In this document: positions 8,144-59,779 of the stretch, one piece after another | Layout of the letters: each line of letters opens with the position of its first letter | How positions within the stretch are numbered: position 1 is the first letter of the stretch | Assembly (NCBI RefSeq): GCF_009914755.1 | Contig: NC_060929.1 | Reading direction: 5' to 3' (one strand) | Source of the DNA: the human T2T-CHM13v2.0 reference genome, Homo sapiens | Length of the DNA stretch: 64,000 bases | Notes under the pieces: model-generated | Told to the model about the DNA's origin: nothing | Databases searched by the model: none | Seen by the model: the letters and a program-made list of their open reading frames with translations, nothing else | Position numbers and translations under genes: made by a program

Positions 8144-9709
8144 TGAGAGGTGACAGCGTGCCAGCAGCCTTCCCTCGCTCTCGGCGCCTCCTCAGCCTTG
8201 GTGCCCACTCTGGCCGCGCTTGAGGAGGCCTTCAGCCTGCCGCTGCACTGTGGGAGTCCCTCTCTGGGCTGGCAGAGGCCGGAGCTGACTCCTTCTGCTT
8301 GCCGGAGGTGTGGAGGGAGAGGCACCAGCGGGAACTGGGGCTGCACGCTAGTTCCGGGTGGATGCGGGCTCAGCGGCCCCACACTCGGAGCGGCCGGCCA
8401 GCGCCACCAGCCCCGCCAGCCCTGGCAGTGAGGGGCTTAGCACCAGCAGCTGCGGAGGGTGCACGGGGTCCCCCAGCACTGCGGGCCGCCCACGCTGCGC
8501 TTGAATTCCCGGGGGGACCTCAGCCGCCTACCCACGGGGGCAGGGCTTGGGACCTGCAGCCCACCATGCCCCAACCCTGCCCCACACATGGGCTCCCCAG
8601 CGGCTGGAGCCTCCCACAAGGGGCGCCGTCCCCTGTCCGTGGCGCCGGGTCCCATCGACTGCTCAAGAGCTGAGGACTGCCGGCTCGCTACTTGGGACTG
8701 GCAGGCAGCTCCGCCCACGGCCAGAGCTCAGGATTCACTCACTAGGGAAGCCAACTAGGCTCCTCAGTCTGCTGGAGACTTGGAGAACTTTTATATCTGG
8801 AGGATTGTCTATGCACCAATCAGCACTCTGTGTCTAGCTCAGGGGTTGTAAATGCACTAATCAGCACTCTGTGTCCAGCTCAAGGTTGGTAAACGCACCA
8901 ATCAGTGTTCTCTGTCTAGCTAACCTAGTGGGGACTTGGAGAGCTTTTGCGTCTAGCTAAAGGATTGTAAACACACCAATCAGCACCCTGTGTGTAGCTC
9001 AAGGTTTCTAAACACACCAATCAGTGCTCTGTGTCTAGTTAATATAGTGGGGATTTGGCGAACTTTTAGGTCTAGCTAGAGAATTGTAAATACACCAATC
9101 AGCATTCTGTGTCTAGCTCAGGGGTTGTAAATGCACCAATTAGCACCCTGTCAAAACAGACCAATCAGCTCTCTGTAAAACGGACCAATCAGTGCTCTAT
9201 AAAATGGACCAATCAGCTCTCTGTAAAATGGGCCAATCAGCAGGATGTGGGTGGAGTCCGATAAGGGAATAAAAGCAGGCTGCCCAAGCTGTAGTGGTAA
9301 GCTGCTTGGGTCGTGTTCAGCAGTGTGGAAGTGTTGTTCTTTTGCTTTTTGCAGTAAATCTTGTTGTTCACTCTTTAGGTCCACACTGCTTTTATGAGTT
9401 GTAACAGTTACTGGGAAGGTCTGTAGCCTCACTCCTGAGGCCAGTGAAATCAAGAACCCCCCAGAAGAAATGGATAACTCTGGATGCAGTGCCTTAAGAG
9501 CTGCAACAATCGCTACAAAGATCTGCAGCTTGACTCCTGAAACCAGGGGGACCACGAACCCACCAGAAGAAAGAAACTCTGAATGCGTCAAACATCAGAA
9601 GGAACAAATTCCAGACACACCATCTTTAAAAACTGTAACAGTCACTGCGAAGGTCCGTGGCTTCATTCTTGAAGTCAGTGAAACCAAGAACCCGCCAATT
9701 CTGGACACA
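8144..9709 (+). mobile_element. solo LTR12 (ERV9 LTR, LTR12C-like)
   Basis: starts TGAGAGGTGACAGCGTG, ends GGACACA; 4-bp TSD GTAT on both sides; GC-rich 5' part, tandem CCAAT enhancer repeats 8810-9245, AATAAAA TATA-like box at 9268. Confidence 0.95.
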
Positions 9710-10100
9710 GTATGATCTTTTTCTTGGATGAGCAGAGTCTGTAGAAGTGTGGACCACCCTGCTACATGCCAGTCCAGGGCATGGGTGAGATGCCACACTT
9801 ACAGCATCCCATTGTGAAGGTGAACAAATGCTGCAAGTGGCGTGAGGCTAAGATAAGTTGACATTTCACAGGCAATGCTAAGAAATTAAGTGGGACAAGG
9901 CTGGAATGGTTAGGGGCAAGGTGTGAAGCCTCAACAGGGAGAAACAGGAGAACCCTGAAGAAGGGGGCTGGCACAGCAGGCACAGAAGTAGCGCAAAGAG
10001 CCCTGAAGCTTCCAGCGGGCACTGGCAGGGGCTTCTGTCTATCCCCACACTGGGACCTTCAGGCTGCCACTAAACTGTACTTTAAAAAATGGTTAAAATG

Positions 10101-16800: not shown

Positions 16801-17686
16801 GCTCAAGGCTTCCGCTAGTAAGTGGTGGCCAGGGTAAGCCCTGGCATGGGACTCCACTCATAACAGATTCTTAACAATCTGTCTGCTTCTGTCACGTGAA
16901 ACAGAGTTCTAGCTTCTACCTGAGAGCTCGCCATAGTTTCCAAGGTTACCTTATTACATTTAAGCTGTTCTGAATTAAGATTGGGTTAACATTTGTATAC
17001 TGTTGTTATTGTTTGAGACAACTCTTGCAGGTCTGGGTACAGGAGGAGAGAGATTATGAAAAAGTTTTTATTACTGGGCTAAAACCTCCTAGCTTAGTGG
17101 TTCCCCATACATGGCTATTAAAGTCTCTACTTAATTTTTAGAGGAATTATTGGATTAATATGTTTGGTTAGTAAATCCTTCCATTCTCTTCTGTCCATGT
17201 GTGTCCTCTGGTACATGTTCAGCTACTTGGTAAGACAATCTGTTTTCAAAATGAGGTTGCATACACATTTATCTGATTTGTAATTAATTTAATGGAAGAA
17301 CATTTAAATGGTGCTTCTAAATAAATCAACAGAAAGTTTTTGTATATGTTCTCATTTTTCCAGTAACTTTTTATGCTAGTAATAGTCCATTTTTCTACTT
17401 TCCCATTTAGTTGGAGCCAGAATAGACAGGTGGCCTCATGTTTAAATTAAGAGGATGATAAAATGCTTATGTTCATTTCTAGGAGACAAAAGCCTGTTGC
17501 CTGTTAGTACTGTTGCTGGGATTCCTAGGTAATAAACAAAAATCCCAGAAACTGTAGCACATAAAATGCTATGCTTGATGAATCTCTAAATTAAGAATTT
17601 AATAGTAAATCTTTTGTTGTTGATTTAACCATGTTACTATGACATCAAGTCTGTAGAATTATTGGATAGACACAAAGTTACCTAAA

Positions 17687-17850
17687 ATACCTCAGCTCTT
17701 TCTCCTCTTGCCATATTATTGGTTATTAATGAATATTAGGGTGAGTCTTCTAACAGTGGGAGTGATAAATACCTCAGCTCTTTCTCCTCTTGCCATATTA
17801 TTGGTTGTTAATGAATATTAGGGTTAGTCTTCTAGGAGAGGGAGTGATAA
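17687..17850. repeat. 82-bp tandem duplication (2 copies)
   Basis: 17687-17768 vs 17769-17850, 5 mismatches by eye. Confidence 0.9.
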
Positions 17851-33240: not shown

Positions 33241-33390
33241 GCTTATGAGGAGCTATTTTGGCGGCATCACATTAAATGTGTTCGACAAGTAAGGAGAGAT
33301 AACTATGATGCTCTCAGATCAGTGTTATTTCAGATATTCAGCCAGGGCATCTCTTTTCCATCATGGATGAAAGAAAAGGACATTGTTAAG
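33241..33390 (+). CDS. OTULINL: OTULINL exon 5 (AYEELFW...RRDNYDALRS...KDIVK), degenerate OTU catalytic-Cys loop
   Basis: ttattag acceptor, AAG|gtatgt donor; 150 nt; DNYDALR parallels OTULIN DNYCALR. Confidence 0.96.
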
Positions 33391-33498
33391 GTATGTCTTC
33401 CCCCTGGAAATGTGGGAAATGTCATGTTGACAATAACTGCAACTCAGACTCCTAGTCTTTGGGGGCTTTGTACTCAGATGACCATGAGATTGAAGAGA

Positions 33499-33793
33499 TT
33501 TTTTTGTTTTTTTGAGACAAGATCTCACTGTCACCCAGGATTGAGTGTAGTGGGGTGATCATGGCTCAATGCAGCCTTGACCTTCTGGGCTCAAGTGATT
33601 CTCCTATCTCAGCCTCCTGAGTAGCTGGGACCACAGGTGCATGCCACCACGCCCATGTAATTTCTGTATTTTTTTGTAGAGACAGGGTTTTCCGTGTTGC
33701 CCAGGCTGGTCTTGAACTTCTGGGCTCAAGCAGTCTGTCCACTTCCTCCTCCTAGAGTGCTTGGATTATAGGTGTGAGCCATCATGTCTGGCC
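33499..33793 (-). mobile_element. AluJ
   Basis: reverse Alu about 110 bp after exon 5. Confidence 0.88.
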
Positions 33794-33929
33794 AGAGGAA
33801 TTTTAAGAGGCCATTTAATCCAGTCCTCTGTCTCTCATGTCAGTTGCAAATAAACCATCTCAGAAGATAGTCATTATCTGTGTTTGTTTTTAATGCCACC
33901 ATCTTTTCTTGAGGGGCATCTGTTCTTTT

Positions 33930-34840
33930 ATAAGTAAGGTGATCAAGCAAAATTCACTTTTTTACTCTATAGTTAATGAGAGTTTTAATAAATGCATAGT
34001 TTGTGACCACCCCAAAGATTCTCTTGTATACTTTGGTAGTCCATCCTCCTCCTACCCCAGCCCCTGAAAACCACTGATCTATTTTCTGTCCCTATAGTTT
34101 TGCTTTTTCCAGAATGTCATATAAATGGAATCATTCAGTATGTAGCTTTTTGAATCTGGTTTCTTTCACTTAGCACAATGCATGTTCAATTGAATGTGTC
34201 TGTGAATTTGTATTTCATCCTTTTTTATTGTTGAGTGGTATTCCTTTACATGAATGTACTACAGTTTGTTTATCCATTCACCAGTTGAAGGACATCTGGA
34301 TTGTTTTTAGTTTGGGGCAACTATAAATAAAGTGGTTATAAATAGTCTCATACAGGATGTTGTATGAACAATAGGTTTCATATTGAGGGGATAAGTAGCT
34401 AGGAGTGAGACTGCCTGCTTGTATGCTAGGTGCATGTTTAACTTCATAAGAAACTGCCAAGCTGCGTTCCAAAGTGGCCCAGCCATTTTGTATTCCCACC
34501 AACAATGTATAAGCAATGTTTCAGTTGTTTCACATTCTCACCAGCACTTGATATTGTCAGGTTTTTGTTTTTAGCCATTCTAATAGTTGTGAATTGGTAT
34601 CATTGTGCTTTTAGTGTGCATTCCCCAATGAGTAATGATGTTGAGCATTTTTCATGTGCTTATTTGTCATCCCTGTTATCTTCTTGGAGAAATGGCTATT
34701 CAAATCTTTTGCTCATTTTTTATGTTTTTTTTTAAATTATTGAGTCTTGAGAGTTCTTTATTCTGAATACAGTGCTTTGTCAGATATATGATTTACATAT
34801 ATTTTCTCCAGTCTGTGGCTTCTGATTTTCTTAACAATGT
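33930..34840 (-). mobile_element. old L1 (L1M) 3' fragment
   Basis: typical antisense L1 3' motifs (tatccattcaccagttgaaggacat; tttagccattctaatag). Confidence 0.8.
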
Positions 34841-35107
34841 AAGGCAGTGCATTCTTGATAAGTAACCTGAGTTTTTATTTTAAATGCAGTATGTCTAATA
34901 TAGGAACTACATTTAAGGATAGAGGTGCAAAGAAATATAAAATATGTGTGTGTGTGCGCACGTGTGTGTGTGTTCAATTTTCTTAATATCTTTTATTTAA
35001 ACTTGTTTCTATTAGTTCCATTTCATCTAGCAAATGCTTGTCAAATATATGCAATGTGCTAGCCCAGTTGCTAATTGCTGAGGACAAAGATATAAAAATA
35101 CAACAGA

Positions 35108-37490
35108 GGCCAGGAGCCGTGGCTTATGCCTGTAATCCCAGCACTTTGGGAGGCCAAGTTGGGAGTATCTCTGGAGGCCAGTAGTTTAAGACCAACCTGG
35201 GCAACAGAGCAAGACTCCATCTTGCCAAAAAATAAAAAAATGTAGCCAGACATGGTGGTCATGCCTATGGTCATAGTTACTTTTGGGAGACTATGATGGG
35301 AGGATTGCTTGACCCTAGGAGTTTAAGGTTACACTGAGCTATGATTGCACCACTGTACTCCAGCCTGGGTGATAGAGTGTGTATTAGTCTGTTTTCATGC
35401 TGCTGATAAAGACAATCAAGATGATATTTGGGTGGGGACACGGCCAAACCATATTATTCCACCCCTGGCCCCTCCCAAATCTCACATCTTCACATTTCAA
35501 AACCAATCATGCCTTCCCAGCAGTCCCCCAAAGTCTTAAATCATTTCAGCATTAACTCAAAAGTTCACAGTACAAAGTCTCATCCAAAACAAGGCAAGTC
35601 CCTTCTTAAGGTATGTCTTCCCCCTGGAAATGTGGGAAATGTCATGTTGACAATAACTGCAACTGTAATCAAAAGCAGTTTAGTTACTACCTAGATGCAG
35701 TGGGGATACTGGGTAAATACAGCCATTCCAAATGGGAGAAATTGGCCTAAACAAAGGGACTACAGGCCATGCAAGTCCAAAATCCAGCAGGGCAGTCAAA
35801 TCTTAAAGCTCCAAAATGATCTCCTTCGATTCTGTCTCATATCCAGGTCACACTGATGCAAGAGGTGGGTTCCCATGGTCTTGGGCAGCTCCGCCCCTGT
35901 GGCTTTGCAGGGTACAGCCTCCCTCCTGGCTGCTTTCACAGGCTAGTGTCAAGTGCCTGTGGCTTTCCCAGGTGCATGGTGCAAGGTGTTGGTGGTTCTA
36001 CCATTCTGGGGTCTGGGGAACGGTGGCCCTCTTCTCACAGCTCCACTAGGCAGCACCCCAGTGGGGATGGGGTCTCAGTGTGGGGGCTCCCACCCCACAT
36101 TTCCCTTTCACGCTGCCCTAGCAGAGGTTCTCCATGAGTGCCCTTCCCCTGCAGCAAACTTCTGCCTGGACATCAAGGCATTTCTGTATATCCTCTGAAA
36201 CCTGGGTGGAGGTTCCCAACCCTCAGTTCTTGACTTCTGTGTACCCACAGGCCCAACACCACGTGGAAGCTGTTAAGGCTTGGGGCTTGCACCCTCTGAA
36301 GGCATGGCCCTAGCTATACCTTGCTTGGCCCCTTTTAGTCATGGCTGGAGTGGCCGAGATGCAGAGCACCAAGTCCCCAGACTGTACACAGCAGAGGGAC
36401 CCTGGACCTGGCCCATGGAACTGCTTTTTGCTCCTAGGTGTCTGGGCCTGTAATGGGGCGGGTGGGGGGGCGTGGTGCGGGTGCTGCTGTAAAGGTTTCT
36501 GACGTGTCCTGGAGACATTTTCCTCATTGTCTTGGTGATTAACATTTGGCTTCTCATTAGTTACGCAAATATCTGCAGCCAGCTTGTATTTCTCCTCAGA
36601 AAATGAGATTTTCTTTCCTATAGCATTGTGAGGCTGCACATTTTCTGAACTTTTACGCTCTCTCTTTCAAAACTGAATGCCTTTAACAGCATCCAAGTCA
36701 CTTCTGAATGCTTTGCTGCTTAGAAATTTCTTTCACCAGATACTCTAAATCATCTCTCTCAAGTTCAGAGTTCCGTAAATCTCTAGGGCAGGGGCAAAAT
36801 GCCACCAGTCTCTTCGTTAAAACATAACAAGAGTCATCTTTGCTCCAGTTTCCAAGTTCCTCATCTCCACCTGAGACTACCTCAGCCTGGATTTCATTAT
36901 CCATATCATTATCAGCATTTTGGTCAAAGCCATTCAACAAGTCTCTAGGGTCTTCCAAACTTTTCCACGTTTTCCTGTCCTCTTCTGAGCACTCCAAATT
37001 GTTCCAACCTCTGCTTGTTACCCAATTCCAAAGTCGCTTTCATGTTTTCGGGTATCTTTTCAGCAGCACCCCAGTCCTGGTACCAGTTTACTGTATTAGT
37101 CTGTTTTCACACTGCTGATAAAGACATAACTGAGACTGAGCAATTTACAAAAGAAAGAGGTTTAACTGGACTTAGAGACAGTTCCATGTGGCTGGGGAAG
37201 CCTCACAATCATGGCGGAAGTCAGAGGAGCAAGTCACATTTTATGTGGTTGGTGGCAGGCAAAAAGAGAGAGCCTGTGCATGGGAACGCTTCTTTTTAAA
37301 ACCATCAGATCTTGTGAGACTTATTGACTATCATGAGACCAGCACAGGAAAAAGACTTGCCCCCACGATTCAGTCACCTCCCACCAGGTCCCTCCCACAA
37401 CACATGGGAATTCAAGATGAGATTTGGGTGGGGACACAGTCAAACCATATTAAGTGAGACCTTGTCTTTAAAAAAGAAAACAAAACAAAA
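35108..37490 (+). mobile_element. AluJ split by THE1 insertion (Alu parts ~35108-35379 and ~37453-37490)
   Basis: Alu stops at ...gatagagtg and resumes agtgagaccttgtc + A tail after the THE1. Confidence 0.85.
35380..37452 (-). mobile_element. THE1 provirus (THE1A-like): internally deleted LTR 35380-35456, internal region, full LTR 37092-37452
   Basis: tgtattagtctgttttca...caaaccatat termini twice; THE1-int motifs between. Confidence 0.9.
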
Positions 37491-38004
37491 CAACCACAAC
37501 AGAGATTCCCAGGCTCAGCAAACTGAGTAGGATGGGAAAATGTATTGGATACCTATGATGGATTAGACTCTTACATACACCATAATCTTATTTAATCCTA
37601 ACAAGAGTCCTATAAAATGCACAGTATTATTGGTATGTTACAATGGAGGATGAGGCTAAGAAGTTAAGTAATCCATGCCGGTTAAGTAATCTCTCAGCTG
37701 GTGAGTGACAGCCAGGTGTGAGCCACAGAGTGCATCATTCTAAAATCCACCTGTTCCCTGATGTAATATACTGCCCTAACATCATTTGGCTAAAAATAAT
37801 TTCTAAAGGGCTACATATAGTAAGTTTGGTAACTATTTTAACAAAAAAGATTGTTTCTATGGACACAATTCTATGTTTTCATCACTTGTGAAATTGTAAG
37901 AATATGATGTAAAAATAACCTAAGGCACAAATCTAAAAGAAGGCAATATACTTAACTGTTGCTATAGTCTTTTAAAATAAAGATTGCTAAATGAGGTAAG
38001 TTTG

Positions 38005-38299
38005 GGCCGGGTGCTGTGGCTCACACCTGTAATTCCAGCACTTTGGGAGGCCAAGGCGGGCAGATTGCTTCAGGTCAGGAGTTCGAGACCAGCCTGACCA
38101 ACATGGTGCAACCCCGTCTCTACTAAAAATACAAAAATTTAGCTGGGCGTGGTGGCTCATGCCTGTAGTCCTAGCTACTCAGGAGGCTGAGGCAGCAGAA
38201 ACGCTTGGACCTGGGAGGTGGAGGTTGCGGTAAGCCGAGATCACGCCACTGCACTCCAGCCTGGGCAACAGAGTGAGATTCCATCTCGAAAAAAAAAAA
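38005..38299 (+). mobile_element. AluS
   Basis: full Alu ending about 90 bp before exon 6. Confidence 0.9.
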
Positions 38300-58011: not shown

Positions 58012-58638
58012 GGGCAGGTATACGAAAAGATGCTCAGCATCACCAATCATCAGGGAAATGCAAATCAAATCACTATGAAATATCACCTCATACTTATTAG
58101 GATGGCTGTTATCAAAAAGGCAAGAGATAAATGTTGGAGAAAATGCAGAGAGAAGGGACCCCTGGTACAATGGTGGTGGGAATATAGATTGATGAAGCCA
58201 CTGTGGAAAATAGTATGGAGGTTCCTAAATTAAAAATAGAACTATCATATAACCGAACAATTCCTCTTCTGGATATATACCCAAAGGAGATGAACTCACC
58301 ACCTCATAAATATATCTGCACTGTTGTGTTCATTGCAGCATTAGTTAAGTTTTCATGGTAAGAATGGCCTTCTAAAAAATAAATTTTATTGCATATATTT
58401 AAGGTGTACAACATGTTCTGAGACAAATACAGTAAAATAGTTACTACAGTCAAGCAAATTAACATATGAATCATCTCATATAGTTACCCCAACCCCATCC
58501 CCCATTTTTTCTGGCAAGAGTTCAGTTAAGTTTATATATCTGCACTGTTGTGTTCATTGCAGCATTAGTCACAATAGCCAAGATAAGGAAACAACCAAGG
58601 TGTCCATTGATAGGTGAGCAAATAAATCACACACACAG

Positions 58639-58670
<32 letters not shown>

Positions 58671-59120
58671 ATTATTCAGCCTTAAAAAAGGAAATCCTGG
58701 CATTTGCCACAACATGGATGAATCTGGAGGACATTATGCTAAGTGAAATAAGCCAGACACAGAAAAATACTGCATGATCTCATACGTGAAATCTTAAAAA
58801 ACCAGTCAAATACACAGCAAATAAAATGGCAGTTATCAGGGGTGTGGTGGAGTACAAATGGGGAGATGTAGGTCACAGGCTAAAAAGTACCAGATATGTA
58901 GGATGTACAATAGGACCGTCGTTAATAATACTGTAATTAGGATTTTTGCTTAAAGTGTAGATTTCAGGAACTCTTGCCAGAAAAAATGGGGGGGTGGGGT
59001 GGCGGGTAACTATATGAGATGATTCATATGTTAATTTGTTTGACTATAGTAACTATTTTACTATATGTATCTTAGAACATGTTGTACACCTTAAATATAC
59101 GCAATAAAATTTATTTTTTA
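58012..59120 (+). mobile_element. L1MA-type 3' end with (CA)n and an internal rearrangement
   Basis: ORF2 C-terminal remnants (gaaatgcaaatcaaa, acatggatgaatctggaggacattatgctaagtgaaataagcc); terminal aataaaa at ~59103. Confidence 0.85.
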
Positions 59121-59779
59121 AAAGGCCATTCTTACTATGAAAACTTGAATGAATGAATCCTAAGCCTGAGTATATCCAGAACACTCATCTAGGCTTCTAA
59201 TGTAACAGGATGTTCTGTGTTCCCAGAATAAAATAAATTTCGTAATAATGCAATGGGATAATGTGTTCAAATGAATACAAGCGATATGGATTATTTCACA
59301 AATACTTTCCTAGTTTATCAAACATGTATAATGATCCACAAGTTTTGGGTAAGGAAATGAAGCTAATGGGGTAAGTGACTTGTCTAAGAGTATCTGGCAC
59401 ATAACAATGTATTTTATTGAATGAATGGATTAATGGGGTAGTGTAGCAGATTGATGATGTATCACAAAATGTACACAACGCAATAATGCATACCATTACA
59501 TATGACAGTGCTGAAAAGAAGAAATGTGTAATAGAAATGTCACTTTTAGAAAATCTGCAGAATCTCAGTAGCTGTCTTCTGTATGGTACCTTTTGAAAGG
59601 ATGGCATTTGCGAGGGAGCTGTCTGTGGTGCTGAACAGGATGCAACTGCTAGGTCTGGTGATGGCCTTCACCAATTTTTGTTCATATTTTCTCCTGGGCC
59701 TCTGTTACCAACGACAACAATATTAATAAAAATTAGTGTAATGTTATCAAGTTTTCCTTTTTAAGCATTCAAAGATTGA

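What the first reader, a model, noticed from the sequence alone, without database searches (positions are those of the whole stretch)
35521..35664. Exact 59-bp copy of the OTULINL exon-5 splice donor pasted into a THE1 provirus, creating a potential in-frame cassette exon
Seen: 33386-33444 (TTAAG|GTATGTCTTCCCCCTGGAAATGTGGGAAATGTCATGTTGACAATAACTGCAACT, spanning the exon 5/intron 5 junction) recurs without mismatch at 35606-35664, inside the THE1 internal region, between THE1-like flanks aggcaagtcccttc and gtaatcaaaagc. Upstream is a tandem acceptor ttcccag|cag (35520/35523). 35521-35610 is 90 nt and stop-free in phase 0 (QSPKVLNHFSINSKVHSTKSHPKQGKSLLK), matching the phase-0 exon 5/exon 6 junction. 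Inference: a templated insertion during break repair, younger than the provirus because the copies are identical, delivered a working 5' splice site. It could exonise THE1 sequence, adding 30 aa to the pseudo-OTU domain, or act as a decoy donor.
Basis: partly seen in the sequence, partly recalled or inferred. Interest (0 to 1): 0.8.

Follow-up and report, generated by a model that had tools for sequence, protein, structure and literature searches.

The report
Splice-donor copy pasted into intronic THE1
A 59-base copy of the end of OTULINL exon 5 and the start of its intron was written into an old retroelement 2.2 kb further down the same intron, probably by a copying slip during DNA replication or repair, and nothing yet shows that cells use it as a new exon.

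Summary
Window 33386-33444 and 35606-35664 are identical. They are the only two copies in the 3.1-Gb assembly and the longest exact repeat in the window.

It is a replacement, not a pure insertion. All 26 other THE1-int copies examined carry 17-20 nt where this copy has the 59-mer plus GT. About 13 nt of THE1 were lost, with 0-1 nt (T) and 2 nt (CT) of junction microhomology, no target-site duplication and no poly(A).

Two new clues point to local template switching:
- The THE1 end left of the insert matches the end of exon 5 at 10 of 16 nt.
- A 26-pair stem joins 33447-33474 (2 nt past the source) to 35569-35600 (5 nt before the insert). It is the best or second-best partner among about 9,700 positions within 5 kb.

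The donor copy sits 90 nt downstream of a THE1 acceptor, in frame and free of stops. That acceptor is weaker than all seven real OTULINL acceptors, the intron holds other strong unused donors, and none of the five RefSeq transcripts uses the exon.

Verdict: a real templated replacement of a known kind. Exon use is untested and the age is only loosely bounded.

The parts
33386..33444 (+). Source of the copy: last 5 nt of OTULINL exon 5 plus the first 54 nt of intron 5, including the donor AAG|GTATGT
   Evidence: exon end 33390 from the hub annotation, phase
35606..35664 (+). Exact 59-nt copy, which replaces about 13 nt of THE1-int. The first T and the last CT could equally come from THE1 (microhomology).
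35611..35616 (+). Copied 5' splice site (GTATGT after AAG), identical to the exon 5 donor from -5 to +54
35521..35610 (+). Candidate 90-nt pseudo-exon (87 nt from the second AG), phase 0, free of stops. No transcript evidence.
   Evidence: no exon here among the five RefSeq transcripts in the hub's table
35518..35523 (+). Tandem acceptor CAG|CAG. The second AG is present in 26 of 26 other THE1-int copies. The first AG is an A-to-G change seen in 1 of 26.
35489..35493 (+). Possible branch point TTCAC, with its A at 35492, 28 nt before the first AG. There is no AG in between.
   Evidence: read; the motif rule yUnAy is recalled
35380..37450 (-). THE1-like LTR element. It has an LTR remnant with a large internal deletion (35380-35458), an internal region (35459 to about 37090) and a full LTR (about 37090-37450).
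   Evidence: The family name and the strand are recalled from the LTR termini and were not tested against a repeat library.
33447..33474 (+). 5' arm of a 26-pair long-range stem. It starts 2 nt after the end of the source.
35569..35600 (+). 3' arm of the stem (THE1-int sequence). It ends 5 nt before the insertion point.
33371..33386 (+). End of exon 5 that resembles the THE1 end 35591-35606 at 10 of 16 nt, including the last nt
33528..33781 (-). Alu that forms an inverted pair with the Alu at 35120-35375, inside the loop of the stem
35120..35375 (+). Second Alu of the inverted pair (188 of 247 aligned nt complementary)

Best explanation
This is a real germline templated replacement (delins). 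A DNA 3' end lying in the THE1 internal region, either a stalled nascent strand or a resected break end, came off its template. It re-annealed 2.2 kb upstream at the end of OTULINL exon 5 and copied 58-59 nt across the exon/intron junction. It then returned to THE1 about 13 nt beyond where it had left.

A long-range stem appears to have guided both jumps. In single-stranded DNA this stem places the end of the source and the insertion point at its base.
- The outward jump used a 10-of-16 resemblance between the THE1 end and the exon 5 end.
- The copying stopped 2 nt before the stem.
- The return landed on a CT dinucleotide.

The by-product is a second, identical copy of a working 5' splice site, 90 nt downstream of an acceptor-like site native to THE1 and in frame. 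Most likely this pseudo-exon is silent or spliced only at trace level, and the patch is neutral.

Shown: the copy, its uniqueness, the loss of THE1 bases, the junction anatomy, the stem and its rank, the frame. Inferred: the order of switches, DNA rather than RNA as template, and the lack of splicing effect.
For: Copy and direction:
- Two exact copies only in 3.1 Gb.
- 0 of 26 other THE1-int copies hold the 59-mer. All 26 have 17-20 nt at the site.
- In one search, the 44 matches other than the window's own two covered only the flanks.

Junctions:
- No duplicated target and no A-tract.
- 13 of 26 copies start the lost stretch with T.
- 22 of 26 copies end the lost stretch with CT.

Resemblance: the THE1 left end matches 33371-33386 at 10 of 16 nt. 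Only 41 of 19,941 sites within 5 kb on both strands do as well (0.2%). With probes of 12 and 20 nt the figures are 1.6% and 0.6%.

Stem: 26 pairs (11 GC, 13 AT, 2 GT), -27.3 kcal/mol with RNA parameters and -16.3 with DNA parameters.
- Among about 9,700-9,800 candidate positions within 5 kb, the true source end is the best or second-best locus with flanks of 40, 50 and 60 nt.
- Among 3,000 random pairs at the same spacing, 1.6% (RNA) and 0.3% (DNA) reach it at 40 nt.
- The other 26 THE1 copies give -19.6 to -31.1, so the complementarity predates this copy's private changes.
- In the fold of 33300-35760 the two sites are 20 steps apart against 2,162 along the chain.

Age: P(0 of 59 differences) is 0.02-0.03 at the LTR divergence.

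Known kinds that fit: class 2 templated sequence insertions show microdeletion and microhomology without target duplication or poly(A) (passages of PMC5110952). Germline MMBIR-type templated insertions occur, including insertions with replacement (passages of PMC8421209).

Against splicing use: and the RefSeq table.
Against: - The stem and the resemblance were found after looking, and the flank length was chosen afterwards. With 30-nt flanks, which cut the stem, the source ranks only in the top 4-5%. With 60-nt flanks and RNA parameters, 6.5% of random pairs reach it.
- Junction microhomology of 0-1 and 2 nt is no more than chance often gives.
- A further 2 nt (AA) are missing just right of the insert, and the model does not explain this.
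- One case cannot show that stems guide such events.
- No other human or primate assembly could be consulted, so fixation, age and even presence outside this assembly are untested. Scans for the junction in two other collections found nothing.
- Gain of a donor is the commonest cause of pathogenic pseudo-exons, at 210 of 359 catalogued mutations (passages of PMC8819188). Silence of this donor therefore cannot be assumed.
Confidence: 0.7

Rival explanations
1. RNA-templated patch. A double-strand break in the THE1 region was repaired using unspliced OTULINL pre-mRNA as template, as in a class 2 templated sequence insertion. The bottom-strand 3' end on the right of the break primed on the RNA at CU. 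It crossed the base of the RNA stem onto the exon 5/intron 5 junction and copied 59 nt leftwards. The product was then end-joined to the left break end.
For: - The source is transcribed, in the same orientation and in the same transcription unit.
- It spans an exon/intron junction, so only unspliced RNA or DNA could serve as template.
- The stem is stronger as RNA (-27.3 kcal/mol), and RNA is single-stranded by nature.
- The inverted Alus pair in the fold, at 217 of 814 pairs.
- The review of templated sequence insertions reports that experimental patches derive from RNA, include intronic sequence, and show microdeletion and microhomology (passages of PMC5110952).
Against: - It leaves the 10-of-16 resemblance at the left junction as coincidence (0.2-1.6%).
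- Nothing in the sequence requires RNA.
- OTULINL expression in germ cells was not examined.
- The described polymorphisms use distant templates, not one 2.2 kb away in cis.
Confidence: 0.15
2. The transplanted donor and the THE1 acceptor define a used in-frame cassette exon that adds 30 residues inside the pseudo-OTU domain. Alternatively, the donor acts as a decoy that changes exon 5-exon 6 splicing.
For: - The donor is identical to a constitutive one from -5 to +54.
- A YAG acceptor with a possible branch point lies 28 nt upstream and has no intervening AG.
- The exon is 90 nt, phase 0 and open.
- By crude criteria it is the only in-frame open candidate among 6 pseudo-exons in intron 5.
- Donor gain is the leading cause of pseudo-exon activation, at 210 of 359 (PMC8819188 passages).
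Against: - None of the five RefSeq transcripts has an exon here (hub annotation). An in-frame exon would escape nonsense-mediated decay and so should be visible if it were common.
- The acceptor is weaker than all seven real ones, at 12 against 14-16 of 18 pyrimidines.
- Three other intronic GT sites are comparably strong or stronger and are not annotated exon ends, for example an 8-of-9 match at 37996.
- The frame is open in 20 of 26 other THE1 copies as well, so openness is a family trait and not a sign of selection.
- Searches of papers on OTULINL/FAM105A together with cryptic-exon terms listed nothing relevant (listings only).
Confidence: 0.08
3. Assembly artefact, or a change private to the sequenced cell line rather than an inherited human allele.
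For: Only one assembly could be read. Scans for the junction elsewhere found nothing, although those collections hold almost no human DNA.
Against: The junctions have the anatomy of a biological repair event. There is a clean 59-nt tract, loss of 13 nt, microhomology, and a source chosen next to the best local complement. Two copies 2.2 kb apart lie within single long reads, so a collapse or mis-join is not expected (general knowledge of the assembly type, recalled).
Confidence: 0.03

Closest known systems
Class 2 templated sequence insertion polymorphisms (Onozawa et al.; review PMC5110952, passages read)
   Same: A short stretch copied from elsewhere in the genome fills a break. There is no target-site duplication and no poly(A). 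There is a microdeletion and microhomology at the junctions. Intronic sequence can serve as template.
   Different: Here the template lies 2.2 kb away in the same intron, not in a distant region. Whether it was RNA-derived and whether it is polymorphic are unknown. A stem joins source and target.
MMBIR/FoSTeS-type templated insertions (MMB-TI; PMC8421209, passages read)
   Same: A 3' end switches template at microhomology or imperfect homology and then returns. Insertions with replacement and direct-orientation copies exist as germline variants.
   Different: That survey searched for templates within 100 bp only. Here the template is 2,220 nt away along the chain, though about 20 steps away in the folded strand.
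Polymerase theta templated insertions (TINS; PMC7165422, passages read)
   Same: Templated insert at a repaired break, primed at very short microhomology.
   Different: TINS are described as 3-30 bp copied from DNA flanking the break, with single synthesis tracts rarely above 10 bp. Here one uninterrupted tract of 59 nt comes from 2.2 kb away.
Pseudo-exon activation by gain of a donor site (catalogue PMC8819188, passages read)
   Same: A new strong 5' splice site appears downstream of a latent acceptor deep in an intron.
   Different: There the donor arises mostly by a single-base change (202 of 210) and inclusion is shown in patients' RNA. Here a whole donor region was transplanted and no RNA evidence exists.
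Exonisation of transposable elements, such as antisense Alu (PMC3629564, listing and abstract only)
   Same: A repeat supplies a ready acceptor with a pyrimidine tract, and one further change completes an exon.
   Different: The element is a THE1-like LTR element, and the completing change is a templated patch, not a point mutation.
Template switching at quasi-palindromes and hairpins (Ripley model; short template switches in primate genomes; recalled, no paper read)
   Same: Secondary structure in single-stranded DNA brings a distant template next to a 3' end.
   Different: Those events copy the opposite arm and give inverted patches. Here the copy is direct and comes from outside the stem, across its base.

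Membership tests
Class 2 templated sequence insertion | Inserted stretch is templated from another place in the genome | tested here: met
   Exact 59-nt match to 33386-33444, absent from 26 of 26 other THE1-int copies
Class 2 templated sequence insertion | No target-site duplication of 5 bp or more, no poly(A) tract | tested here: met
   The flanks share no repeat, and the insert ends without an A-tract
Class 2 templated sequence insertion | End-joining marks: microdeletion, microhomology | tested here: met
   About 13 nt lost; 0-1 nt and 2 nt of microhomology
Class 2 templated sequence insertion | Template is distant and RNA-derived; insertion is polymorphic among people | not testable with these tools
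   The template is 2.2 kb away in cis. No population or RNA data were reachable.
MMBIR/FoSTeS templated insertion | Microhomology or imperfect homology at each template switch | tested here: met
   10 of 16 nt with the terminal nt paired at the first switch. CT at the return, present in 22 of 26 copies. Both are weak taken singly.
MMBIR/FoSTeS templated insertion | Template close to the 3' end in space | tested here: met
   A 26-pair stem puts source end and target at its base. It is the best or second-best partner within 5 kb. Found after looking.
Polymerase theta TINS | Insert of 3-30 bp copied from DNA next to the break | tested here: not met
   59 nt from 2,220 nt away
L1-mediated insertion (class 1) | Target-site duplication, poly(A), TTTT/A target | tested here: not met
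   None of the three is present at the junctions
Cassette exon | AG acceptor with pyrimidine tract and branch point, GT donor, frame kept | tested here: met
   The acceptor is weaker than the seven real ones (12 against 14-16 of 18).
Cassette exon | Spliced transcripts that contain it | not testable with these tools
   No RNA-seq was reachable. None of the five RefSeq transcripts has it (hub annotation).
THE1 (MaLR) LTR element | LTR-internal-LTR structure and many dispersed relatives | tested here: met
   There were 356 first-look candidates in the genome, and the internal region aligns over about 1.7 kb at 76-80% to six copies. The family name itself is recalled and was not checked against a repeat library.

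The most novel reading that the evidence does not exclude
Template switching guided by a stem transplanted a working 5' splice site next to a latent THE1 acceptor. This created a lineage-specific, in-frame 90-nt cassette exon of OTULINL that is spliced in some tissue. If so, templated patches would be a route of exon birth distinct from point mutation in a repeat.
Probability: 0.1. Interest if true: 0.7.

Novelty: new member of a known kind. Interest (0 to 1): 0.35.

Why it matters
As it stands, this is a clean, well-resolved example of a germline templated replacement. Its source appears to have been chosen by DNA or RNA secondary structure, which is useful as a worked case for people who study how such patches form.

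It is also a natural experiment in splicing. An exact copy of a constitutive donor, with 54 nt of its intron context, sits in the same intron beside a plausible acceptor. If RNA data show that it is ignored, that says how much context beyond the donor decides exon choice. If it is used, it would be an unusual way to make a new coding exon.

No medical or functional consequence is indicated.

Tried and rejected
- Reverse direction (THE1 as the source of the exon 5 donor): rejected. 0 of 26 other copies hold the 59-mer, the genome has only two copies, and the first 5 nt are coding.
- L1-mediated insertion: rejected. There is no target duplication and no poly(A).
- Classical polymerase theta insert: it does not fit in length or template distance.
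- Inverted Alus as the cause of proximity: the two Alus do pair in the fold (217 of 814 pairs). However, shuffling the second Alu left the source-target distance at 20 steps in 3 of 5 controls and 59 in the other 2. The small stem, not the Alus, makes the contact, although the Alus may help close the loop.
- A larger, decayed duplication: rejected. The 15 nt left of the copy are ordinary THE1 sequence, and flank identity is at chance.
- Independent assemblies: exact scans for the 28-nt left junction found 0 hits in genome contigs and 0 in viral contigs. This was expected, because these collections hold little human DNA.
- Papers: the searches for OTULINL/FAM105A alone (222 papers, 20 listed) and with cryptic-exon terms showed nothing on an exon in intron 5. 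The search for templated insertion with splice-donor terms gave 7 papers, none on this by title. All three were listings only, and supplementary junction tables were not searched.
- The place of the exon 5/6 junction in the solved OTULINL structure was not determined. Only its position between the pseudo-catalytic residues is known, from a review.
- No MaxEnt or SpliceAI score was computed. A 9-position consensus count and a pyrimidine count were used instead.
Full report
**1. The observation**

Reading the window shows the same 59 nt at 33386-33444 and at 35606-35664.
- The repeat finder reports them as one family at a spacing of 2,220 nt.
- A pattern search allowing 3 mismatches finds exactly these two sites, and 0 of 100 shuffles give two matches.
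- A search of the whole 3.1-Gb assembly with the 60 nt from 33386 finds these two places and no others at E<=10.
- In an all-against-all scan of the window this is the longest exact repeat, direct or inverted. Identity in the 40 nt on either side is 14 of 40 and 9 of 40, which is chance level.

The first copy covers the last 5 nt of OTULINL exon 5 and the first 54 nt of intron 5. The exon end at 33390 comes from the hub's annotation, and the donor reads AAG|GTATGT.

**2. What surrounds the second copy**

A 151-nt query across the second copy gave 46 matches in the genome. Only the window's own two places covered the middle of the query. The other 44 covered only the left 44-48 nt or the right 42-43 nt.

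I read 26 of those relatives: 6 loci and 20 stretches fetched. All 26 align up to window position 35605 and resume at the sequence that follows 35666. Between these points they carry 17-20 nt, mostly 17, where the window has the 59-mer plus GT. So about 13 nt of the element were replaced by the 59-mer. A further AA is missing from a short A-run just to the right.

Longer comparisons place the site in an LTR element of about 2.07 kb. It consists of:
- an LTR remnant with a large internal deletion at 35380-35458;
- an internal region to about 37090, which aligns over about 1.7 kb at 76-80% to six other copies;
- a full LTR to 37450.

The name THE1 and the minus-strand orientation rest on my recall of the LTR termini, not on a repeat library.

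**3. Junction anatomy**

There is no duplicated target and no A-tract.
- At the left junction the first base of the copy (T) is also the first base of the lost stretch in 13 of 26 relatives.
- At the right junction the last two bases (CT) are also the last two of the lost stretch in 22 of 26 relatives (my reading of the table).

Microhomology is therefore 0-1 and 2 nt, which is little more than chance.

The THE1 end left of the copy (35591-35606) resembles the end of exon 5 (33371-33386) at 10 of 16 nt, including the last one. Of 19,941 sites within 5 kb on both strands, 41 match as well (0.2%). With probes of 12 and 20 nt the figures are 1.6% and 0.6%. The probe length was chosen after seeing the alignment.

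**4. A stem between source and target**

Folding 33300-35760 as one strand put the end of the source and the insertion point 20 steps apart, against 2,162 along the chain. My first idea was that the inverted Alu pair in between was responsible. That pair is 33528-33781 and 35120-35375, with 188 of 247 nt complementary, and it accounts for 217 of 814 pairs in the fold. However, shuffling the second Alu left the distance at 20 in 3 of 5 controls.

The contact is a separate stem of 26 pairs (11 GC, 13 AT, 2 GT) between 33447-33474 and 35569-35600. It begins 2 nt after the source ends and stops 5 nt before the insertion point. Its energy is -27.3 kcal/mol with RNA parameters and -16.3 with DNA parameters.

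The corresponding 40 nt of the 26 other THE1 copies give -19.6 to -31.1, with a mean of -24.7. The complementarity therefore belongs to the family sequence and predates this copy's private changes.

Tests of the stem:

| Test | Flank | RNA parameters | DNA parameters |
|---|---|---|---|
| 3,000 random position pairs at the same spacing that reach the stem's energy | 40 nt | 1.6% | 0.3% |
| Same | 60 nt | 6.5% | 1.6% |
| Same (this flank cuts the stem) | 30 nt | 12% | 9% |
| Rank of the true source end among about 9,700-9,800 positions within 5 kb | 40 nt | one of two best loci | the single best locus |
| Same | 50 nt | the single best locus | one of two best loci |
| Same | 60 nt | one of two best loci | the single best locus |
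| Same | 30 nt | top 4.2% | top 5.0% |

This feature was found after looking and rests on one case. I treat it as good but not conclusive support.

**5. Mechanism**

The reading that uses all three clues runs as follows.
1. A top-strand 3' end ending in the THE1 left flank detaches, at a stalled fork or a resected break.
2. It anneals to the end of exon 5, helped by the 10-of-16 resemblance and by the proximity the stem creates.
3. It copies rightwards through the splice junction and stops where the folded template begins, 2 nt before the stem.
4. It crosses the base of the stem back to THE1 and lands on a CT 13 nt beyond its point of departure.

This is the logic of MMBIR or fork stalling and template switching. 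Germline templated insertions of that kind, including insertions with replacement and direct copies, are described (passages of PMC8421209). That survey looked only for templates within 100 bp.

The junction marks also fit class 2 templated sequence insertions: microdeletion, microhomology, no target duplication and no poly(A) (passages of PMC5110952). These are thought to be RNA-derived. An RNA-templated version, with unspliced OTULINL pre-mRNA as template, explains the stem equally well but leaves the left-junction resemblance as coincidence. I rank it second.

Classical polymerase theta inserts are described as 3-30 bp copied from the DNA next to the break, in tracts rarely above 10 bp (passages of PMC7165422). 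That does not fit one 59-nt tract from 2.2 kb away. An L1-mediated event is excluded by the junctions.

**6. Age**

The two LTR pieces that can be compared differ at 5 of 76 nt (33 of 35 and 38 of 41 identical). At that divergence 3.9 differences are expected between two 59-nt copies, and none is seen. P is 0.02, or 0.03 when the uncertainty of the LTR figure is integrated. The patch is therefore younger than the element.

The 95% upper bound on its age is still about 77% of the LTR-pair age. With an assumed rate of 1e-9 per site per year, that is 25 against 33 million years (the rate is an assumption). Identity alone does not make the patch recent or human-specific, and no other primate or human assembly could be reached.

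**7. The exon idea**

The coding sequence up to 33390 is 498 nt, so the exon 5/6 junction is phase 0. 35521-35610 is 90 nt and translates without a stop. From the second AG it is 87 nt, also in frame. The donor equals the real one from -5 to +54.

The acceptor is native to the element. The second AG is present in 26 of 26 relatives. The first AG comes from an A-to-G change shared with 1 of 26. A TTCAC lies 28 nt upstream, with no AG in between (the motif rule is recalled).

Against use:
- The tract has 12 of 18 pyrimidines, while the seven real OTULINL acceptors have 14-16.
- Of 313 GT sites in intron 5, 6 match the donor consensus at 7 or more of 9 positions. Four of these have G at both -1 and +5, including an 8-of-9 site at 37996, and none of the others is an annotated exon end (the consensus is recalled).
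- The same frame is open in 20 of 26 other THE1 copies, so openness is inherited from the family.
- The five RefSeq transcripts listed by the hub have no exon here, although an in-frame exon would not be removed by nonsense-mediated decay.

For use:
- Gain of a donor is the commonest cause of pathogenic pseudo-exons, at 210 of 359 (passages of PMC8819188).
- By my crude criteria this is the only in-frame open candidate among 6 in the intron.

If included, the 30 residues would enter after residue 166. That lies between the pseudo-catalytic Asp139 and His350 named in a review (passages of PMC7862380), so it is inside the pseudo-OTU domain. Where that falls in the solved structure was not determined. 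No RNA data could be consulted. Paper searches on the gene with cryptic-exon terms listed nothing relevant (listings only, supplements not searched).

**8. Verdict**

Two corrections apply: the patch replaced 13 nt, and its age is only loosely bounded.

New here are the replaced bases, the left-junction resemblance, and the stem that links the source end to the target. Together these favour local template switching over capture of a free fragment.

The splicing consequences remain a hypothesis. I put used exonisation or a decoy effect at about 8-10%. The event belongs to a known kind of mutation, and interest is moderate to low unless RNA data show use.

Noticed in passing
window 58310-58569 and 58968-59146: Inside an L1-like 3' region, 58346-58533 is an inverted copy of 58968-59146 (166 of 177 aligned nt identical). 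It is flanked by an exact 36-nt direct duplication (58310-58345 = 58534-58569). This is either an older local inverted templated duplication or an antisense 3'-end insertion with a long target duplication.
   Followed up: partly
window 35106-35460: The Alu at about 35106-35378 ends without its A-tail, directly against the first base of the THE1 LTR remnant. That remnant keeps only about 76 nt of the two LTR ends (35380-35414 and 35416-35458). This suggests an earlier deletion that removed the Alu tail and most of the LTR.
   Followed up: no
window 37996, 37701, 38074: Intron 5 holds other strong donor-like sites that are not annotated exon ends: GAG|GTAAGT at 37996 (8 of 9 consensus positions), CTG|GTGAGT at 37701 and CAG|GTCAGG at 38074.
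   Followed up: no
window 17685-17806: A 40-nt exact direct repeat 82 nt apart (17685-17724 and 17767-17806), with 35 of 40 identity continuing to the right. It is probably a short tandem duplication.
   Followed up: no
L003-L028 (THE1-int copies) and window 35524-35605: Read from the conserved AG, the strand that is sense to OTULINL stays free of stops over 27 codons in 20 of 26 other THE1-int copies. All 26 carry the acceptor-like CAG. Many intronic copies in this orientation could therefore become in-frame-capable exons on gaining a donor.
   Followed up: partly
window 34380-34384: A second place in the intron whose following 40-60 nt pair with the THE1 flank as well as the true source flank does under RNA parameters (-28.1 kcal/mol). 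It was not used as a template.
   Followed up: no
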